From assembly GCF_036647415.1 (NCBI RefSeq), contig NZ_JAVXKG010000016.1, positions 19-64,018 of the forward strand: a DNA stretch of 64,000 nt, given 5' to 3'. This document shows positions 52,594-60,305 of the stretch, one piece after another. The notes under the pieces are model-generated. The model was not told the DNA's origin. It made no database searches and saw nothing but the letters and a program-made list of their open reading frames with translations. The stretch comes from Algoriella sp. Lineage in GTDB: Bacteria > Bacteroidota > Bacteroidia > Flavobacteriales > Weeksellaceae. The position numbers and the translations under genes are program-made. How positions within the stretch are numbered: the first letter of the stretch is position 1; every line of letters begins with the position of its first letter.

Positions 52594-53790
52594 TTAAAAA
52601 GTCGTATTGGTTAAAACTGCATACGAAAATGTTAACACAGACAGTATTGTACCTATCATAAAAATAGTATATGTAATGCTCAATAATCTGTATTTACGTT
52701 CTAATACCTTTCCCAAAAAGTATAAATCACGCGTTAAAGAATTGTATAAATAATCTCTATCTTTCATCAATTCTTGCATTGCTTCTTCATAAGACTCTAA
52801 TGACATTTGATAAAAATTACCAAAAAATAACAAGTTCACTTTTTTCTGTTTAACATCTTCTTCGTTAAAACTTTCGTAAGTTACATTAGGTTTTGTTGCT
52901 AAAATCGCGAAAACGATAGAAACAACACTAGAAAACAACATAACAATTGAAGGCAATAAAAGATATTCATTTTTAGGAGTTGCCAATTTCGGAATCAATG
53001 TAGAAAGAGCAATCGAAATTACAATCGCATTTACAGATAATAAAATATTGGCTTTACTATCTGCAATATCACTTAGTCTGGTATGATTATTTAATGTTAC
53101 ACGAAATAAAGTGTCAACGCCTCTGTCGGGCTGTTGCATTTTATCGTTTTTTTTCTTTTTTAACTCAAATTTATTTGGAACATCTCCTATTAATTCTATT
53201 TCTTTGATTTTATTTTGTGTGTAAATCAGATTATTTTCTTTCCCTTTTTGCCATAAATCTTTGGCAGAATCAGTATAAAAATGATGTACATTTAAAAAGA
53301 AATTTCTGTTCTCTAAATTCCATTCATAATCAGAAAATTCTTTCTCACAAACTTTTGCTATTTCATCTCTCAAAAGCTCCGAAATTTTAGGATATTCTTC
53401 CTGACCTAGATGATAATTATCGGCATCTTTTATAATAGATTCTTCAATATTTCTGGGCGTGTAATTAATCTTAGTAGACAAGATATACGCAACTACATTT
53501 GCTATAAAATCTTCTGAAAAATTAATAGATTTTAAATACTCACTTGCAATTTTTGCGCTCTCATCTTCATGTCCTTGTACTGTTTTTGTATAACCTGTAT
53601 CGTGAAACCAACCCGCAACTATTAACTGTTCTTGTGTTTCAACCAAAATTTGTTCGTTTGTACATAAAATTTTAATTGCTTCAACAACTTTCACAGTATG
53701 CATAAAATTATGATACGTAAAATCCAAAGAAAGATTATCTTTGAATAAATTAAAAACATAGTTTTCTATTTTTGATAAGGCCGGATTCAT
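52594..53790 (-). CDS. HD phosphohydrolase fused to Pycsar-type TM effector domain (DUF5706/PycTM)
   Basis: YHN..HT, WFHDTG, HE, DAD; C-terminal IADSKANILL-TM-TM-LLFFGNF...KYRLL-TM. Confidence 0.85.
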   Translation of the reverse strand: MNPALSKIENYVFNLFKDNLSLDFTYHNFMHTVKVVEAIKILCTNEQILVETQEQLIVAGWFHDTGYTKTVQGHEDESAKIASEYLKSINFSEDFIANVVAYILSTKINYTPRNIEESIIKDADNYHLGQEEYPKISELLRDEIAKVCEKEFSDYEWNLENRNFFLNVHHFYTDSAKDLWQKGKENNLIYTQNKIKEIELIGDVPNKFELKKKKNDKMQQPDRGVDTLFRVTLNNHTRLSDIADSKANILLSVNAIVISIALSTLIPKLATPKNEYLLLPSIVMLFSSVVSIVFAILATKPNVTYESFNEEDVKQKKVNLLFFGNFYQMSLESYEEAMQELMKDRDYLYNSLTRDLYFLGKVLERKYRLLSITYTIFMIGTILSVLTFSYAVLTNTTF

Positions 53791-53814: not shown

Positions 53815-56800
53815 ATGAAATTATTACCAACACAAAACATTAAAAAACTGAATTATCCATTTTTGGCTTTAGTCGGTTCTTGTTTATATATGACATCTTG
53901 TGCGACACAGCATCCACAGTATGGGCAACATATAAAAAATGAGAAAGTACAAAACGTCGAAGGGAAAAAAATTCAATCAATCTACTTAATCGGTGATGCA
54001 GGAAATTTAGATAATCCAAAGAAAAAACAAACTTTAGAAAATTTAAAATCCGAATTGAGTAAAGCTGACTCTGCTTCATATTTATTTTTTTTAGGAGACA
54101 ATGTTTATGAAAATGGGATTCAACCAGATTCTACCAAATCAGACTATACGACTAGCCGAAATAAGCTACAATTACAAATCGATTTAGCGAAATCTTTTAA
54201 AGGAAAAACTTTATTTATTCCAGGAAATCACGATTGGCGAAATGGTTTAGAAGGATTAAAAGAGCAAGAAAAAATAGTTAAAAAACAACTTACAAATAAA
54301 AAATCTTTTCTACCAAAAGACGGCTGTCCTATAGATAAAATTAATGTAAATGATAGTATCGGAATTATTGCGGTAGATTCTGAATGGTATTTACAAGATT
54401 GGGATAAACATCCTGGACTTAATGAAAAATGTGATGTAAAAACACGCGAGGCATTTTTTGAGGAATTAGAATCTCAGTTAAATAAATACCAAAATAGAAC
54501 GACTATTTTGACGATGCATCATCCATTATATTCAAACGGAACTCATGGTGGTCAATTTGATCTGAAAAAGCAAATTTATCCTTTGGGCGATTATTCTAAA
54601 ATTCCGTTACCAATCATTGGATCATTTATTAATTTATTAAGAAGCACAACAGGGCTTAGTCCTCAGGATGTTAATAATTATAAATACCGAGAAATGGCTT
54701 CTCGTATTGCAACATTAATCGAAAATAGAAATAATGTAATTGTTGTTTCTGGACACGATCATAATTTACAATACATCCAAAATAATAATGTAAAGCAGAT
54801 TATTAGTGGTTCTGGCTCTAAAAGTGAATCAGCAAAAGCTGTCGGTAAAAATGATTTTTCTTACGGAGATAATGGTTTTGCTATTTTAGATTTATATGAT
54901 AATGGCGCATCTAAAGTTAACTTTTATGGTTTTACAGAAACTGGCATTGACTTATTACTTTCTAAACAAGTAACAGAAAAGAAAAAAGAGTATTTGGCAC
55001 AAGTTTACGATGATAAAAAAATGCCAAAGAAAAAAGAAACATCTGTTTATCCACAAGAAAATACACAAAAATCTGATCCGTATAAATTCTTTTTTGGACG
55101 ACATTATCGCAAAACTTACGGACAAACGATTAGTGCAAATACAGTTAATCTTAGCGAATTATACGGCGGCTTAACTCCTGTACGAAAAGGAGGTGGTCAC
55201 CAAACACAAAGTTTACGATTAACAGACAATAAAGGTCAGGAGTATAATATGCGTTCGGTGAAGAAAAGCGCAACTCAGTTTATACAACAAGTTGCTTTCA
55301 AAAATAAATATGTTGCAGATGAATTTGAAAACTCATTTACAGAAAAATTTTTGATGGATTTTTATACCACAACACATCCATATTATCCTCTAGCAGTTGC
55401 TGATATGATGAAACCGATTGGTATCATGCATTCTACTCCAAAATTATATTATGTACCAAAACAAGAAGCGTTAAAAGAATATAATGAGTATTTTGGCGAC
55501 GAATTGTACATGATAGAGGAACGCCCTATGTCTGCTTATCAAGAAGGTGTTTTCGGAACACCAAAAGATATTGTAAGTACAGATGACATGTTAACTGCCA
55601 TTCAAAAAAACAAAAATATTATTGTCGACAAACAAGCCTACATGCGTGCACGTTTGTTTGACATGTTGGTTGGAGATTGGGATAGACACCAAGACCAATG
55701 GCGTTGGGGAATTTATGAAGACAAAGGTCAAACGATTTATAAACCAATTCCACGAGATAGAGATCAGGCTTTTCCTAGATATGATGGTTTATTTTTCAAG
55801 GTTATTATGGGAATTCCACCTTTGCGTCACATGCAAGATTACAAAGATGATATAAAAAACATAAAATGGTTTAACAGAGAGCCTTATCCGTTAGATTTAG
55901 CTATTTTAGAATCATCTGATCTTGATGGATGGAAAAAAGAAGCTCGCTATATACAAGAACATTTGACGGATGAAGATATTAGAAAATCTTTCGAATTAAT
56001 TCCCGAAGAAGCTAAGCAAGATTATGATAAAGAAGTAATTCATAATATTATTGAGCGTCGTGAAAAATTAGAAAAATTCGCAGAAGAATATAATAAAACT
56101 CTTCGAAAACTAATCATTTTAAAAGGTACAAATGAAGATGATAAATTTATTGTAACGCGTTTACCTAAAGGAAAAACAAATATAAAAATCTATTCAGGAA
56201 AAGATAGTACATTAATATTTGATGAAGAGTTTACGAAAAAAGAAACGAAAGAAATTCGTGTCTATGGTTTAAATGGTAAAGATCAATTTATAGTTGATGG
56301 TAAACCAAATCATGCCATTCTAACACGACTTATTGGTGGTGTTGATGATGATATTTATGAAGTAAAACGATCTAGTCGAATAAAAGTTTATGATTATGCA
56401 AACGGTAGTGATGCTTCTGAATCTACTTTTTTAACATCAAAAAACTTTGTAAACGACTACGAAATAAACACTTACGATTACACACAACCAAAGTATAACT
56501 TTTTCACAATGTTGCCTAATATTGGTTACAACCCTGATGATGGTATAAAAATTGGTCTTTCACCAACGTATACTGTCAATGGTTTTGATCGTAAACCTTA
56601 TTCTCAGCGTCATAATTTGCAATTAAATTATTATTTTGCAACAAGTGGTTGGGAAGCGAAATACAAAGGTACCATTATGAAAGCGCTTGGTAAATGGAAC
56701 TTGGATCTGAATGCGGCTTACACCAGCCCTACTTTTAGTACAAACTTTTTTGGATTAGGAAACGAAACCATTAATAATGATGAACAAAAAGGAATGGATT

Positions 56801-57540
56801 ATAACCGTGTTCGATTAGAAAGTTATAGTATTGGTCCTTCTATTTTTAAGATATTAAACAACAATGGTCGTTTAGATTTTTCTGCGATTTACAGCTATGT
56901 TAAAATAGAAGAAAATAAAGATCGAATTGTAAGTGAACAAAATATCGGTATAAATAGAGATGTTTTTAAAGGTCAAAATTTTGGAGAAATTGGTGCTAAA
57001 TATGTTTTCAAGAATTACGATAATGCATCATTGCCAAAATTAGGAATGACATTTTTAGCAAATGCAAAATGGATTTCTAATTTATCAGAATTTCAACGCA
57101 ATCATTTCTATACCGAATTAAACCTTGGTTTTACTCATAAAATTTCAGCAAATGGTAGATTAACAGTAGCTTCTATGCTGAAAGGTAAAGCAGTTTGGGG
57201 AAATTTTATGGAATTTTATCAAATGGCAAATTTAGGTGGTGATCAAGATTTGAGAGGTTATCGTTTAGGAAGATTTGTAGGTGATAAAGTCTTTTTACAA
57301 ACATCTGATTTACGTTTTGACGCCTTAAGATTTACAGCAGTTGTACCAATGCGTTTAGGCGTTTTTGTTGGTGCAGATTATGGTAGAGTATGGCTAGATG
57401 GTGAAGACTCAAACAAATGGCATTCATCTATGGGTGGTGGAATTTGGATAAACGGAGTTCAATCTGTGACAGCTACATTATCATATTTCAAAGGAGAAGA
57501 TCCTGGCAGAATAGTAATTGGAATTAACTTCGGTTTCTAA
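53815..57540 (+). CDS. Lipoprotein: metallophosphoesterase plus kinase-like domain plus Omp85 barrel
   Basis: MTSC lipobox; GDAG, GDNVY, GNHD, HHP, GHDH; GGGHQT, DWDRH, RDRD; LRGY; terminal Phe. Confidence 0.85.
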   Translation: MKLLPTQNIKKLNYPFLALVGSCLYMTSCATQHPQYGQHIKNEKVQNVEGKKIQSIYLIGDAGNLDNPKKKQTLENLKSELSKADSASYLFFLGDNVYENGIQPDSTKSDYTTSRNKLQLQIDLAKSFKGKTLFIPGNHDWRNGLEGLKEQEKIVKKQLTNKKSFLPKDGCPIDKINVNDSIGIIAVDSEWYLQDWDKHPGLNEKCDVKTREAFFEELESQLNKYQNRTTILTMHHPLYSNGTHGGQFDLKKQIYPLGDYSKIPLPIIGSFINLLRSTTGLSPQDVNNYKYREMASRIATLIENRNNVIVVSGHDHNLQYIQNNNVKQIISGSGSKSESAKAVGKNDFSYGDNGFAILDLYDNGASKVNFYGFTETGIDLLLSKQVTEKKKEYLAQVYDDKKMPKKKETSVYPQENTQKSDPYKFFFGRHYRKTYGQTISANTVNLSELYGGLTPVRKGGGHQTQSLRLTDNKGQEYNMRSVKKSATQFIQQVAFKNKYVADEFENSFTEKFLMDFYTTTHPYYPLAVADMMKPIGIMHSTPKLYYVPKQEALKEYNEYFGDELYMIEERPMSAYQEGVFGTPKDIVSTDDMLTAIQKNKNIIVDKQAYMRARLFDMLVGDWDRHQDQWRWGIYEDKGQTIYKPIPRDRDQAFPRYDGLFFKVIMGIPPLRHMQDYKDDIKNIKWFNREPYPLDLAILESSDLDGWKKEARYIQEHLTDEDIRKSFELIPEEAKQDYDKEVIHNIIERREKLEKFAEEYNKTLRKLIILKGTNEDDKFIVTRLPKGKTNIKIYSGKDSTLIFDEEFTKKETKEIRVYGLNGKDQFIVDGKPNHAILTRLIGGVDDDIYEVKRSSRIKVYDYANGSDASESTFLTSKNFVNDYEINTYDYTQPKYNFFTMLPNIGYNPDDGIKIGLSPTYTVNGFDRKPYSQRHNLQLNYYFATSGWEAKYKGTIMKALGKWNLDLNAAYTSPTFSTNFFGLGNETINNDEQKGMDYNRVRLESYSIGPSIFKILNNNGRLDFSAIYSYVKIEENKDRIVSEQNIGINRDVFKGQNFGEIGAKYVFKNYDNASLPKLGMTFLANAKWISNLSEFQRNHFYTELNLGFTHKISANGRLTVASMLKGKAVWGNFMEFYQMANLGGDQDLRGYRLGRFVGDKVFLQTSDLRFDALRFTAVVPMRLGVFVGADYGRVWLDGEDSNKWHSSMGGGIWINGVQSVTATLSYFKGEDPGRIVIGINFGF

Positions 57541-57547
57541 TAAATAC

Positions 57548-57582
57548 AAAAAAAATAACCTTCAATAGAAGGTTATTTTTTT
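57548..57582. terminator. Bidirectional terminator
   Basis: AAAAAATAACCTTC...GAAGGTTATTTTTT, overlapping the SRPBCC stop. Confidence 0.85.
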
Positions 57583-57983
57583 TGCACATATCTCTTAATA
57601 TCTTGCATCATATTAATCCATTTTATTTCTGAATGTGATCGTTCGTATTCATCTGCAAAATCTTTCGATTCTATTGATAAATAAGTATAATTACCAGAAG
57701 GTTTCAAACTAAAAATCACTTCAATTTCGTGGTTTGAGTTTTGCTTTTTATAATTGTAACGCAAACGTTCGTCTTCTAAAATTGACGTGATAAAAGCTTC
57801 ATCAATAATGGTTTCTCCATTTAGTTGAGATTCAAATTTTATCTTCTCTCCTACTTTCCAGTCATTACAAGTCATTTTTGTATTCTCAAAACACGCAGCA
57901 AATTCTTGCTCATCTACCAAAACTTTCCAAATATCTTGTGGTGTAGCTTCTATCGAGATATTTAATAAAACTATATCGCTCAT
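57573..57983 (-). CDS. SRPBCC/AHSA1-like protein
   Basis: IEATPQDIWKVL, DWKVGEKIKF, W..M...IKRYV. Confidence 0.75.
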   Translation of the reverse strand: MSDIVLLNISIEATPQDIWKVLVDEQEFAACFENTKMTCNDWKVGEKIKFESQLNGETIIDEAFITSILEDERLRYNYKKQNSNHEIEVIFSLKPSGNYTYLSIESKDFADEYERSHSEIKWINMMQDIKRYVQKK

Positions 57984-57986
57984 TTT

Positions 57987-60305
57987 CTAATCTTTTAATT
58001 CAATATATTTTGTTACTTCTTTTCTATAATTTATCGAAGCTCTAATTGCTAATAAACCATTTATTCCCTGCAAATCATTCACTTCTAAATATTCGATATC
58101 ATCTTTCAAATAATTTTCAGCAATCAATAATTTAAAATATTCTGCGTATTCTTCACGTAAAACATCTTCCGTATAAATTACACAAATTTTACCTGGTTGA
58201 TTTATTCTTTCTGTTGAATCTTTTATAAATGCTTTACTTATTCTTTTCTTAATTATTTCGTATTTAGCATTATTGTAACCATTTACATCAAATCGTTTTT
58301 CATCTAATTTAAAAATAATATCCAACGTGTTATTTGTTGCTAAAATTAATGAAGCTACATCTATTTCTATCGGAACTTTTTCACGAATATTATTATAAGC
58401 TTGCTCTAACGCTAGGTTTGCTTGCAATTGCCAAAATCTTATTTTCTTAACATCTTGATAACTAAATTTTTTCTGAGGCGCAATACTTCTTCCAACATAT
58501 AAATTATAATCAATTCCATCTGTTTTGAAACGCTCATAATAATGTGGAAAAATATTTTGAGCATCTAGTTGAAAAATATCTAACTTATTTGATAATAAAG
58601 AATTGATCATCGAAATTGATTGATCAAATTTTTTGCGTTCGATGTAAAATAAACCCGTCGTAGAATCTAATTTTTCTAGATATTCTGTAATAATAGATTT
58701 TTCATCTTCTTTTACATATTTTGGAATTTCGGGATGAATATTTATCGCGATATAATCAAATAATTCGCTCTCAAAATAAATTTTATCAACATTATGTATT
58801 CGTTCCGAAAAATCTTTTAATTGGTCAATATATTCTAAAAACTTATCTTTTTGTGTACGTCTAAAAAGTTCTTCGCATATTTGTATCAAATAATCAAGTT
58901 GATTTTTATAATCAATACGCATACAATTATTCCGAATGAAAGATGAATTTCTAACATCTATTTCGCCATATATTGGATACACATTCTGAAAAGAAACCTG
59001 AGATTTAGGCTTACTATTTGTGATATGCACCAAATGTTCGCGCGCTTTTTCTCTAAATTTCCAATCTACACTTGGATGCAATGACGTATATTCAGTCTGA
59101 ATGTAAGCATTAATCTGATTCTCAAATTCGACAGAATAACGGTAAATAGATTCTTCTAAAAGTGGAGTAAATTCTCGTAATAAATTCGCATTAACACGAT
59201 TAAAAACACCCGATTTTTTAGATGCAATTTCTAAAATTCCTAAACAATCATCTCCATTTTTAAGTGGATAAAGTATCAAACTTTTGTAACCTTTTTCTGA
59301 AACAATTTTCAATAATTTATCTTCTGGTTGCTTCTCTAACATAGAATCTACATTAGAAATTACATAATAATCTGATTTACTGATTTTATTTTCGAGATGA
59401 ACACATGCTACTTCATCCATTTGAAAATCATTTTTACTATTTAGCAATAAACTCGTAGTCATGTGCTGCAACGGGCTATTTTCTAATAAACTGGTTTCTG
59501 AATTATAAATAGAAAAACCAAGCTCCAAATCGCCAAGTTTGAAAATAGATTTTAATGCTGAAGTTATATCAAGCTTTACCAAATCAAATGGTTCGCCATA
59601 AGTCAATAATTTACTTTTCAATTTTGATAAAGCAATTTCGGTCGTATTATCAAAAAACGAAACTAAATTAAATCCTTTTGCAATCCATGATTGTAGCGGA
59701 ATATATTTCATCCAAAGAGCTGTGTCTTCGTATTTGTTTAGTAATTCTTCTATCTGATCTTCAGATAATTCATACTTTTCATCTGTCGGAAAAATTGAAA
59801 AATAATCATGATTAATGTCTGTTCCTAGATAGATTTTATATCCCTCATCATTAATTATTTCTAATTGATTTGACATTGCGAGATATAAATTTTTATTGTA
59901 ATATTTTGACAAAATAAAACAACAACAAATCTTGTAAATGTTATCATAATCAAGATCCGAATACGTTAGTTTTAGTTTCGAATGTTTGTTATGTAATAAT
60001 TCTTTTAAACGATCTGTCGCAAATATAAATTTATCTGTAAAAGGAAAAGTTATTGCCTTTAAATTATTCTTTATCAAAGGTTTTGGAATAATTTTATCGA
60101 TAATTGGCTCTACATCTTTTACTAATTTTTCAAATTCTTCAAAAGTTTCTACACCATTTATTAGTTCTGGCTTTGTTTCTTTCAAATAATCTAAAAACAC
60201 TTTAAATTCTCCAAAATTATATTCAGAATTTTCTAATTCTTCAATCAAAGAACTGAAAGAATAGACTATTTTTAAGGGTAGTTTATCTATAAAATTAGCA
60301 GTCAT
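57987..60305 (-). CDS. GAF-domain protein with putative divergent class III nucleotidyl cyclase domain
   Basis: GAF core SLILYPLKNGDDCLGILEIAS; LHPSV, FQNVYPIYGEIDVRNSS, RFKTDGI, FDVNG, QPGKICV. Confidence 0.75.
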   Translation of the reverse strand: MTANFIDKLPLKIVYSFSSLIEELENSEYNFGEFKVFLDYLKETKPELINGVETFEEFEKLVKDVEPIIDKIIPKPLIKNNLKAITFPFTDKFIFATDRLKELLHNKHSKLKLTYSDLDYDNIYKICCCFILSKYYNKNLYLAMSNQLEIINDEGYKIYLGTDINHDYFSIFPTDEKYELSEDQIEELLNKYEDTALWMKYIPLQSWIAKGFNLVSFFDNTTEIALSKLKSKLLTYGEPFDLVKLDITSALKSIFKLGDLELGFSIYNSETSLLENSPLQHMTTSLLLNSKNDFQMDEVACVHLENKISKSDYYVISNVDSMLEKQPEDKLLKIVSEKGYKSLILYPLKNGDDCLGILEIASKKSGVFNRVNANLLREFTPLLEESIYRYSVEFENQINAYIQTEYTSLHPSVDWKFREKAREHLVHITNSKPKSQVSFQNVYPIYGEIDVRNSSFIRNNCMRIDYKNQLDYLIQICEELFRRTQKDKFLEYIDQLKDFSERIHNVDKIYFESELFDYIAINIHPEIPKYVKEDEKSIITEYLEKLDSTTGLFYIERKKFDQSISMINSLLSNKLDIFQLDAQNIFPHYYERFKTDGIDYNLYVGRSIAPQKKFSYQDVKKIRFWQLQANLALEQAYNNIREKVPIEIDVASLILATNNTLDIIFKLDEKRFDVNGYNNAKYEIIKKRISKAFIKDSTERINQPGKICVIYTEDVLREEYAEYFKLLIAENYLKDDIEYLEVNDLQGINGLLAIRASINYRKEVTKYIELKD

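What the first reader, a model, noticed from the sequence alone, without database searches (positions are those of the whole stretch)
53815..57540. Single polypeptide with phosphatase, atypical kinase-like domain and Omp85 barrel
Seen: lipobox (C29); calcineurin-like/purple acid phosphatase motifs (GDAG, GDNVY, GNHD, HHP, GHDH); a middle domain with a Gly-rich loop GGGHQT (G459), MRSVKK, DWDRHQDQ (D621-H625) and RDRD (D648); then LRGY and a C-terminal Phe. Established: DRHxxN is the catalytic loop of PI3K/PI4K-like kinases, and metallophosphoesterase-Omp85 fusions have been catalogued in Bacteroidota without a known function. Inference: opposing kinase and phosphatase activities are displayed on, or translocated by, a type Vd-like barrel.
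Basis: partly seen in the sequence, partly recalled or inferred. Interest (0 to 1): 0.75.

Follow-up and report, generated by a model that had tools for sequence, protein, structure and literature searches.

The report
Outer-membrane barrel carrying phosphatase and kinase-like domains
This 1241-residue protein joins an intact phosphatase and a kinase-shaped domain to an outer-membrane barrel, and across Bacteroidota its gene stays next to a cyclic-nucleotide cyclase and a membrane protein otherwise known from phage defence, pointing to an envelope system not described in the papers searched.

Summary
ORF 53815-57540 (+) encodes a 1241-aa lipoprotein (Cys29 invariant). It has a purple-acid-phosphatase-type metallophosphoesterase with all metal ligands conserved, a 360-aa middle domain, an all-beta linker and a 16-strand Omp85 barrel.

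The middle domain has no Pfam match. Its AlphaFold2 model (pLDDT 85) hits only kinase folds in the PDB: CtkA, Rio2, CotH, HipA, HipT, PI4KII-alpha. Its GGGxQ(S/T), K484, D623-R-H-x-D-Q628 and D648-R-D650 residues are invariant or nearly so in 82 orthologues.

"Type Vd-like display" is not supported: the linker is not a POTRA domain, and the lipid anchor lacks the acidic surface-export signal.

The gene belongs to a conserved module. An HD-PycTM inner-membrane gene lies within 10 kb in 72 of 80 flavobacterial loci, a GAF protein in 66 and a propeller lipoprotein in 65. In other Bacteroidota families a class III cyclase and a stand-alone PycTM take the corresponding places. Distribution looks inherited, not like a defence island.

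Best reading: the periplasm-facing, outer-membrane enzyme subunit of an undescribed cyclic-nucleotide/phosphoryl envelope system.

This scan has already noted the same module in at least eight other genomes.

The parts
53815..57540 (+). Whole ORF, 1241 aa plus stop: lipoprotein signal, metallophosphoesterase, kinase-like domain, beta linker, Omp85 barrel
53815..53901 (+). Signal peptide and lipobox ending at Cys29 (M-T-S-C; family consensus L-x-S-C-A-T)
   Evidence: C29 82/82, S/A at -1, A30 and T31 73/82, no acidic residues after the Cys
53968..54975 (+). Purple-acid-phosphatase-type metallophosphoesterase domain (aa 52-387)
   Evidence: Pfam PF00149 E 6.5e-10; PDB sequence hits to TRAP5/PAP; Foldseek GAP50 E 4e-9; all ligands conserved
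55030..56106 (+). Protein-kinase-like (HipA/CtkA-like) domain (aa 406-764), no Pfam family
   Evidence: AF2 pLDDT 85, pTM 0.85; Foldseek CtkA, Rio2, CotH, HipA, HipT, PI4KII-alpha; PADLOC PDC-M03A (a HipA_C-type model) on aa 610-645, E 1e-5
55189..55206 (+). Gly-rich/P-loop GGGHQT (aa 459-464) between predicted strands beta1 and beta2
   Evidence: G459, G460 and Q463 82/82, S/T464 82/82; position in the model
55264..55266 (+). K484, candidate nucleotide-binding lysine just after beta3
   Evidence: 82/82 orthologues; 139/140 diverse relatives
55672..55707 (+). Catalytic loop G620-D-W-D623-R-H625-Q-D-Q628-W-R-W631, following the alpha-E-like helix
   Evidence: Invariant; aligns with G-N-N-D-R-H-F-F-N-W of HipA_C-type proteins
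55753..55764 (+). R647-D648-R-D650, candidate metal-binding (DFG-equivalent) aspartates after the beta hairpin
   Evidence: D648, R649 and D650 82/82; aligns within one residue of the HipA-type Y-D
56110..56448 (+). All-beta linker domain (aa 766-878), about ten strands and no helices; not POTRA
   Evidence: DSSP on the whole-protein AF2 model
56500..57537 (+). 16-strand Omp85-type barrel (aa 896-1241) ending in Phe
   Evidence: 16 strands in the model; Foldseek BamA/TamA/Sam50; Pfam PF01103; F1241 73/82
57250..57261 (+). L6-loop motif L-R-G-Y (aa 1146-1149) between barrel strands 11 and 12
   Evidence: R1147 81/82, G/A1148, Y/F1149; loop position
52594..53790 (-). Partner gene: HD phosphohydrolase fused to a PycTM-type 3-TM domain, divergent, 24 bp between the two start codons
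   Evidence: Pfam PycTM E 2.4e-34, HD E 1.7e-8; TM segments 247-271, 275-303, 368-394; within 10 kb of the big gene in 72/80 loci
57987..60305 (-). Partner gene: 772-aa GAF protein that occupies the place taken by a class III cyclase in other lineages
   Evidence: Linked in 66/80 loci; GAF by profile; cyclases in its place; cyclase identity not shown here

Best explanation
The protein is the outer-membrane subunit of an inherited Bacteroidota envelope module.

Anatomy (inferred topology): it is exported by Sec and lipidated on Cys29. It is held in the outer membrane by a 16-strand Omp85 barrel. Its two enzyme domains hang from the barrel on the periplasmic side: a purple-acid-phosphatase-type metallophosphoesterase and a HipA/CtkA-like kinase-fold domain with a complete catalytic set.

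Partners: an inner-membrane PycTM-type 3-TM protein (here fused to a cytoplasmic HD hydrolase); a cyclic-nucleotide cyclase or, in Flavobacteriales, a GAF protein in its place; and usually a periplasmic propeller lipoprotein.

Proposed working, all inferred:
1. The cytoplasmic sensor-cyclase makes a cyclic nucleotide.
2. That nucleotide acts on the PycTM channel-like protein, and the HD domain resets it.
3. The channel lets a phosphoryl compound reach the periplasm. This could be a nucleotide, or polyphosphate in the lineages that carry a PPK1 copy inside the module.
4. The barrel-anchored kinase-like domain uses or binds that compound to modify an envelope target, and the phosphoesterase hydrolyses it or reverses the mark.
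For: Shown:
- Domain anatomy and conserved catalytic residues.
- HipA-type catalytic-loop correspondence.
- Export signals are also present on the split versions, a stand-alone phosphoesterase and a kinase-barrel protein.
- HD-PycTM lies within 10 kb in 72/80 loci, the GAF protein in 66/80 and the propeller in 65/80.
- In family f43 the operon is big gene -> class III cyclase-TPR -> stand-alone PycTM. In f36 it is propeller -> kinase-barrel -> TM-cyclase, convergent with HD-PycTM. In G266 all parts sit in one co-directional operon with the phosphoesterase as a separate gene.
- About 106 of 123 kinase-domain genomes in a 301-genome phylum sample also hold an HD/PycTM match. 46 of 47 genomes with the GAF protein hold the kinase domain (the overlaps are my own hand count from those tables).
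- Distribution looks core-like: 17/17 genomes of the genus and 21/22 of family f5.
- A PPK1 paralogue lies inside the module in G082 and G298.

Inferred: periplasmic orientation, from the conserved lipid anchor without acidic residues and from the rule that N-terminal extensions of Omp85 proteins are periplasmic.
Against:
- The periplasm is not known to hold ATP, so a true kinase there needs an unproven donor supply.
- The kinase assignment rests on a predicted fold with modest TM-scores (0.36-0.53). The profile-profile alignment to HipA is not significant on its own.
- The 772-aa GAF protein shows no detectable cyclase signature by sequence.
- 17 of 123 kinase-domain genomes lack a PycTM match.
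- In this window the propeller is unlinked and the GAF gene has moved.
- PPK1 linkage was seen in only 2 of 5 genomes tested and in none of the 80 flavobacterial loci.
Confidence: 0.45

Rival explanations
1. Type Vd-like autotransporter. The barrel exports its own N-terminal phosphatase and kinase domains to the cell surface or releases them, and they act on extracellular, prey or host substrates.
For: - The order passenger - linker - 16-strand Omp85 barrel resembles PlpD.
- The best structural match, CtkA, is a secreted kinase.
- Purple acid phosphatases are usually extracytoplasmic scavenging enzymes (established knowledge).
- Heinz & Lithgow raised both topologies for the PF00149-Omp85 group.
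Against: - The linker is all-beta, not POTRA.
- The lipidated Cys is invariant and has no acidic surface-export signal.
- There is tight, phylum-wide linkage to cytoplasmic and inner-membrane signalling genes.
- There is no ATP outside the cell, and the carriers are mostly free-living organisms.
Confidence: 0.2
2. Anti-phage system. The locus is a Pycsar/Pucsar variant (cyclase plus PycTM effector) in which the barrel protein is an extra effector or an outer-membrane sensor of phage attack.
For: - The PycTM domain matches strongly (Pfam E 2.4e-34; PADLOC PycTM E 2.9e-18).
- Canonical class III cyclases lie adjacent in relatives.
- The kinase loop matches a PADLOC defence-candidate model, PDC-M03A.
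- A CHAT-TPR gene lies nearby in f43 loci.
Against: - The module is present in 17/17 genomes of the genus and 21/22 of a neighbouring family, mostly as a single copy, with conserved synteny and ordinary housekeeping neighbours. This is unlike patchy defence islands.
- Neither the big protein nor the GAF protein matches any PADLOC system protein over its full length.
Confidence: 0.12
3. Two-partner-type translocase or assembly factor. The Omp85 barrel moves or inserts the neighbouring propeller lipoprotein, and the enzyme domains are only regulatory or are inactive ligand binders.
For: - The propeller lipoprotein gene is convergent with the big gene in 65/80 loci.
- Many orthologues carry precomputed ShlB/FhaC (PF03865) hits on the barrel.
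- Omp85 proteins are normally polypeptide transporters (established knowledge).
Against: - Both active sites are invariant over 82 orthologues, which argues for catalysis.
- There is no POTRA domain to receive a substrate.
- In this genome the propeller is unlinked.
Confidence: 0.1

Closest known systems
Omp85 'Metallo' subfamily of Heinz & Lithgow 2014 (PMC4104836)
   Same: An Omp85 barrel with an N-terminal PF00149 domain, function unknown. This protein is evidently of that kind.
   Different: The paper calls the domain a metalloprotease. In the passages I searched it mentions no kinase-like domain, lipid anchor or partner genes. It describes the group as conserved only at genus level, whereas here it spans the phylum.
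HipA / HipT / CtkA atypical Ser/Thr kinases
   Same: Best fold matches. Shares the GGxQ P-loop, the G-x-x-D-R-H-x-x-(N/Q)-W catalytic loop, and an Asp after a beta hairpin. A HipA_C-type PADLOC model matches aa 610-645.
   Different: No Pfam HipA_C or HipA_N match. Gln replaces the loop Asn. The domain is extracytoplasmic and fused to a membrane barrel. There is no HipB/HipS antitoxin partner.
Type Vd autotransporter PlpD
   Same: An N-terminal enzyme followed by a 16-strand Omp85-type barrel.
   Different: The passenger is not a patatin lipase, an all-beta linker replaces POTRA, and the N-terminus is lipidated.
Pycsar / Pucsar TM-type systems (cyclase + PycTM/pJV1-spdB3 3-TM effector; bioRxiv 10.64898/2026.08.12.744502)
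   Same: The partner genes are a PycTM-type 3-TM protein and, in relatives, a PF00211 cyclase.
   Different: PycTM is often fused to HD, and the cyclase is replaced by a GAF protein in Flavobacteriales. The gene set is inherited rather than mobile. It always comes with outer-membrane and periplasmic enzymes, which that preprint does not mention in the passages I read.
Mammalian/plant purple acid phosphatases and Plasmodium GAP50
   Same: Same fold and the seven-ligand motif set, including the Tyr of GDxxY.
   Different: Fused to other domains and membrane-anchored; substrate unknown.
TamL, the lipidated Omp85 of Bacteroidota (bioRxiv 10.1101/2024.10.17.618404)
   Same: An Omp85 barrel whose N-terminus is lipid-anchored, with the soluble part thought to face the periplasm (abstract).
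   Different: TamL carries POTRA domains and no enzymes.

Membership tests
Omp85 superfamily | 16-strand C-terminal beta barrel | tested here: met
   16 strands in the AF2 model; Foldseek BamA/TamA/Sam50, TamA barrel TM 0.59; Pfam PF01103 31.3 bits against a cut-off of 24
Omp85 superfamily | Conserved (V/I/L)RG(Y/F) motif in loop L6 | tested here: met
   L-R-G-Y at 1146-1149 between strands 11 and 12; R 81/82, G/A, Y/F
Omp85 superfamily | One or more POTRA domains before the barrel | tested here: not met
   aa 766-878 are predicted all-beta, with no beta-alpha-alpha-beta-beta unit
Type Vd autotransporters (PlpD) | Patatin-like passenger plus a single POTRA plus an Omp85-type barrel | tested here: not met
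   The passenger is a phosphoesterase plus a kinase-like domain; no POTRA; only the barrel agrees
Type Vd autotransporters (PlpD) | Passenger translocated to the surface and released | not testable with these tools
   Needs protease accessibility or secretome data; the lipid anchor without an acidic signal argues against it
Calcineurin-like metallophosphoesterases, purple acid phosphatase type | Five motif blocks GDxG / GDxxY / GNH(D/E) / H / GHxH giving seven metal ligands | tested here: met
   All present and 79-82/82 conserved; PF00149 over its cut-off; PAP/TRAP5 by sequence
Protein-kinase-like superfamily | Bilobal kinase fold | tested here: met
   AF2 pLDDT 85; all top PDB hits are kinases, probability 1.0, E down to 1.5e-5, TM 0.36-0.53. 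This is a prediction, not a solved structure.
Protein-kinase-like superfamily | Gly-rich loop, Lys, catalytic Asp with downstream Asn, metal-binding Asp | tested here: inconclusive
   Candidates G459-Q463, K484, D623, Q628 (Gln, not Asn) and D648/D650 are invariant and in the right order and secondary-structure context. Their 3-D arrangement could not be inspected.
HipA family (Pfam HipA_C/HipA_N) | Significant match to the family profiles | tested here: not met
   No Pfam hit; hhalign to 30 HipA proteins gives probability 0.2%; only a local match to the HipA_C-type PADLOC model PDC-M03A, E 1e-5
PI3K/PI4K kinases | DRHxxN catalytic loop within a PI3_PI4_kinase domain | tested here: not met
   The loop reads DRHQDQ. 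There is no PF00454 match. PI4KII-alpha ranks only 14th by fold.
Pycsar (module level) | PycTM or PycTIR effector | tested here: met
   The neighbouring gene matches PF18967 at E 2.4e-34 and PADLOC PycTM at E 2.9e-18
Pycsar (module level) | PycC-type class III cyclase in the locus | tested here: inconclusive
   None detectable in the window. PF00211 cyclases occupy the equivalent place in f43, f36 and f18 loci.
Pycsar (module level) | Patchy, mobile defence-island distribution and phage protection | tested here: not met
   17/17 in the genus, 21/22 in f5, conserved synteny. Protection itself is not testable here.

The most novel reading that the evidence does not exclude
Bacteroidota run a phosphoryl-transfer pathway outside the cytoplasm. 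A cyclic-nucleotide-controlled PycTM-type pore feeds a phosphoryl donor (a nucleotide or polyphosphate) into the periplasm. There a kinase-fold enzyme anchored to an Omp85 barrel phosphorylates an envelope target, and a fused purple-acid-type phosphatase removes the mark. As far as I know, this would be the first periplasmic kinase/phosphatase signalling cycle, and a physiological, non-lethal use of a phage-defence effector.
Probability: 0.2. Interest if true: 0.9.

Novelty: new variant of a known kind. Interest (0 to 1): 0.72.

Why it matters
- **Kinase outside the cytoplasm.** Kinase-fold enzymes are not expected outside the bacterial cytoplasm, because the periplasm is not known to hold ATP. 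Here one with an invariant active site is welded to an outer-membrane barrel. It occurs in more than 5,500 protein clusters and in 123 of 301 sampled Bacteroidota genomes, including the genetically tractable Flavobacterium johnsoniae (locus L027).
- **Partner genes.** Its fixed partners are the two parts of a Pycsar-type phage-defence pair, but they are inherited like housekeeping genes. If the parts work together, this is an unrecognised envelope signalling or phosphate-handling route. It would also be a case of a defence effector family used for everyday physiology, or the ancestral state of that family.
- **The catalogued subfamily.** The result gives a concrete hypothesis for the Omp85 'Metallo' subfamily, which has been catalogued since 2014 without a function.

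Tried and rejected
- **Sequence searches for the kinase link.** The middle domain has no Pfam hit at E<=10. A family profile against all PDB sequences gave only chance hits. hhalign against 30 HipA proteins was not significant, although the alignment path joined the P-loop and the catalytic loop. So the kinase assignment rests on the predicted fold plus a local PADLOC match.
- **PI3K/PI4K or Fam20/CotH as closest relatives.** Rejected in favour of HipA/CtkA. CotH ranks 9-10, PI4KII-alpha ranks 14, and Fam20 is absent from the top 50.
- **POTRA domain.** Rejected from the predicted secondary structure.
- **Cyclase identity of the 772-aa GAF protein.** A profile against PDB and Pfam gave GAF only. 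hhalign against the neighbouring cyclases was not significant. Precomputed Pfam labels of 120 homologues show no PF00211.
- **Polyphosphate kinase linkage (a lead from earlier notes).** A PPK1 paralogue lies inside the module in 2 of 5 genomes tested. PPK2 is never linked. No PPK turned up among the recurrent or sampled neighbours I scanned, in the 80 flavobacterial loci or in the f43 and f36 loci.
- **'Stand-alone' 430-600-aa kinase-domain proteins.** Many run on into the linker sequence and look like contig-end fragments. I did not count them as an architecture.
- **Riemerella anatipestifer T9SS metallophosphoesterase (Niu et al. 2021).** The paper is not held, so orthology could not be checked. 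The kinase domain was not found in 6 of 7 other genera of the family.


Full report
**Observation.** The window holds one open frame at 53815..57540 on the + strand, giving 1241 aa.

Pfam finds a calcineurin-like phosphoesterase at aa 56-267 (40.2 bits, cut-off 21.5). It also finds an Omp85 domain in the last 441 aa (31.3 bits, cut-off 24). NCBIfam's Omp85_fam matches aa 1030-1241. By sequence, the nearest solved structures are human and pig purple acid phosphatases and Plasmodium GAP50. Residues 400-800 match no Pfam family even at E<=10.

**How common it is.** A word-indexed search with the middle region found more than 5,500 clusters. Almost all are ~1240 aa and come from Flavobacteriales. 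Those that carry a source name are called 'metallophosphoesterase' or similar generic names. Empedobacter species lie at 83-85% identity.

An exhaustive search of 50%-identity representatives found 2,099 relatives of the middle domain. They fall into two clear architectures:
- ~1240 aa: phosphoesterase + middle domain + barrel.
- ~860-930 aa: middle domain + barrel, without the phosphoesterase.

In a 301-genome sample of the phylum, 123 genomes in 57 of 144 genera carry the domain. It is present in all 17 sampled genomes of the window's genus, but in only 1 of 7 other genera of its family.

**The middle domain is kinase-shaped.**
- An AlphaFold2 model of aa 400-800 built on 35 homologues has mean pLDDT 85.2 and pTM 0.85.
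- Foldseek against the PDB returns only protein-kinase-like folds among its top 50. These are H. pylori CtkA (E 1.5e-5, TM 0.53 on the target), Rio2, B. cereus CotH, HipA, HipT and PI4KII-alpha. The TM-scores are modest, so this is a distant member of the fold.
- The order of elements fits a kinase: strand - G459GGxQ(S/T) - strand - strand - K484, helices, then a long helix (606-619), then G620-D-W-D623-R-H-x-D-Q628-W, a beta hairpin, then P-I-P-R-D648-R-D650.
- In 140 relatives at 33-50% identity, K484 is kept in 99%, D621 in 100%, D623 in 89%, R624 in 98%, H625 in 86%, D648 in 90% and D650 in 97%.
- In 82 full-length orthologues these residues are invariant, apart from H625 at 81/82.
- At the sequence level there is one bridge. 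PADLOC's PDC-M03A model matches aa 610-645 at E 1.1e-5. That model hits the same ORFs as Pfam HipA_C in two genomes, so it is a HipA_C-type family.
- The family HMM aligns LFDmligDWDRheDqWrW...PIPrDRD with LFDAIVGNNDRHFFNWGI...PIYDSAR of those proteins. This makes D623 the catalytic Asp, Q628 the counterpart of the loop Asn, and D648 the likely metal-binding Asp.
- Full profile-profile comparison with HipA is not significant. A profile search of PDB sequences finds no kinase.
- I therefore say it works like a HipA/CtkA-type kinase, but I do not file it in that family.

**The other parts.** The whole-protein model (aa 42-1241, pLDDT 77.8, pTM 0.72) shows four units:
- the phosphoesterase (aa 52-387);
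- the kinase-like domain (aa 406-764);
- an all-beta linker of about ten strands with no helices (aa 766-878), so it is not a POTRA domain;
- a 16-strand barrel (aa 896-1240), with L-R-G-Y in the loop between strands 11 and 12.

Foldseek of that model finds GAP50 and then BamA, TamA and Sam50 barrels. Across 82 orthologues:
- all seven purple-acid-phosphatase ligands are kept (79-82/82);
- Cys29 is 82/82 and is followed by A-T (73/82) with no acidic residue;
- R1147 is 81/82;
- the terminal Phe is 73/82.

From memory, surface-exposed lipoproteins of Bacteroidota carry acidic residues just after the Cys (Lauber et al. 2016). Their absence, together with the general rule that N-terminal extensions of Omp85 proteins are periplasmic, makes a periplasmic location the better guess. 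This step is an inference.

**Surroundings.** The gene is divergent from a 398-aa gene (52594-53790, - strand), with 24 bp between the start codons. That gene encodes an HD domain plus a PycTM domain (Pfam E 2.4e-34; PADLOC PycTM E 2.9e-18) with three hydrophobic segments. Downstream on the - strand lie a small AHSA1-like gene and a 772-aa GAF protein (57987-60305).

In 80 loci from named Flavobacteriaceae and Weeksellaceae genomes:
- the HD-PycTM gene is within 10 kb in 72, mostly immediately adjacent and divergent;
- the GAF protein is present in 66, tail to tail with HD-PycTM;
- a 289-aa SdiA-regulated/phytase-like propeller lipoprotein is present in 65, in the loci I inspected convergent just after the barrel gene.

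Most loci that lack these genes are short contigs. In the window's own genome the propeller homologue lies on another contig, and the GAF gene has moved to the other side.

**Other lineages show what the partners are**.
- Family f43: the operon is barrel gene -> a 646-666-aa protein with an N-terminal class III cyclase domain (PF00211) plus FlgO-like and TPR parts -> a stand-alone 190-aa PycTM.
- Family f36: propeller -> kinase-barrel protein without phosphoesterase -> a membrane-anchored PF00211 cyclase, convergent with HD-PycTM, with a PAP2 phosphatase next door.
- Genome G266: one co-directional operon reads HD-PycTM -> propeller -> stand-alone exported phosphoesterase -> GAF protein -> kinase-barrel protein.

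So the phosphoesterase can be fused, separate or missing. The GAF protein sits where bona fide cyclases sit elsewhere.

In the 301-genome sample, about 106 of the 123 genomes with the kinase domain also hold an HD/PycTM match. 46 of the 47 genomes with the GAF protein hold the kinase domain (the overlaps are my own hand count from those tables). Some GAF-protein relatives carry a fused HD domain (968-aa forms).

I could not show that the GAF protein is itself a cyclase.

**What it probably does.** The conserved core is a kinase-fold Omp85 protein plus a PycTM-type inner-membrane protein plus a cyclase or its stand-in. Two of these are the parts of Pycsar/Pucsar TM-type defence systems. In those systems the 3-TM effector, also called the pJV1-spdB3 family, forms a cylindrical hexamer (bioRxiv 10.64898/2026.08.12.744502).

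Here the set is present in every genome of the genus and in 21 of 22 genomes of a neighbouring family. It is mostly a single copy, has conserved gene order, and has ordinary neighbours such as SRP receptor, Hsp33, short-chain dehydrogenase and YaaA. That pattern fits inheritance of a physiological system better than a defence island.

Because the barrel protein's enzymes are outside the cytoplasm, the simplest link to a gated inner-membrane channel is a compound that passes through it. I therefore propose cyclic-nucleotide-controlled delivery of a phosphoryl compound to periplasmic, barrel-anchored kinase-like and phosphatase enzymes. A dedicated PPK1 paralogue lies inside the module in two of five genomes tested (G082, G298). 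This makes polyphosphate one candidate, but the link is absent from the flavobacterial loci.

None of the transfer steps is shown.

**Rivals.**
- Surface display or release, as in type Vd secretion, remains possible. It lacks the POTRA domain and clashes with the lipid anchor and the partner genes.
- A defence role fits the parts list but not the distribution.
- A translocase role for the neighbouring propeller fits the Omp85 family, but not the invariant active sites.

**Literature.** Heinz & Lithgow 2014 list an Omp85 'Metallo' subfamily with PF00149. They call it a metalloprotease and leave its topology open. Searches for Omp85 with metallophosphoesterase, Omp85 with HipA, DUF5706, PycTM and spdB3 found no paper describing the kinase-like domain or the gene set. 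Neither the TamL paper nor the Bacteroidota BAM paper mentions it in the passages I searched.

**Earlier notes of this scan.** I worked out the partner genes. After that, a look-up showed that this scan has already noted and followed up the same module in at least eight other genomes, reading it as a housekeeping envelope system and not as Pycsar. My results agree with that reading. Their polyphosphate-kinase link is only partly reproduced here. I could not test their report of a hidden cyclase fold in the GAF protein.

Noticed in passing
window 52594-53790 (-): A 398-aa protein with an intact-looking HD motif set (H27/H31, H63-D64, D122) fused to a PycTM-type 3-TM domain. Its start codon lies 24 bp from that of the barrel gene, so the two promoters must overlap coding sequence.
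   Followed up: partly
window 57987-60305 (-): A 772-aa GAF protein with a highly conserved ~370-aa C-terminal region of unknown family. Some relatives (968 aa, e.g. P0328) carry a fused HD domain, and a few carry the Pfam label PF27174.
   Followed up: partly
window 57573-57983 (-): A small AHSA1/SRPBCC-like gene sits between the barrel gene and the GAF gene. It is found in none of the 80 related loci, so it is probably a local insertion into the module.
   Followed up: partly
L014 (G017:C12:93000-112500): A genome of the same genus has two full-length paralogues of the barrel protein (69-71% identical to the window's) flanking the GAF gene.
   Followed up: no
G082:C25:106418-106954 and G298:C1:1067884-1068408: A second PPK1 (polyphosphate kinase 1) copy lies inside the module, between HD-PycTM and a kinase-barrel gene. 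The other PPK1 copy is elsewhere in each genome.
   Followed up: partly
L141:12771-13625 and L142:3930-4778: In the two f36 loci, where the barrel protein lacks the metallophosphoesterase, a PAP2-family membrane phosphatase gene lies next to HD-PycTM.
   Followed up: no
G000:C33:2801-3379: The propeller lipoprotein that follows the barrel gene in 65/80 related loci has its only homologue in this genome on another contig (38% identity).
   Followed up: partly
G000:C5:13876-14568: The window's genome also holds an ordinary cytoplasmic HipA_C-family gene (333-aa frame), unrelated to the module.
   Followed up: no
L139:2-2380 (and the same gene family in L138, L140, L143): A large TPR-CHAT protein, a domain pair common in conflict systems, lies a few genes upstream of the barrel gene in all four f43 loci.
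   Followed up: no
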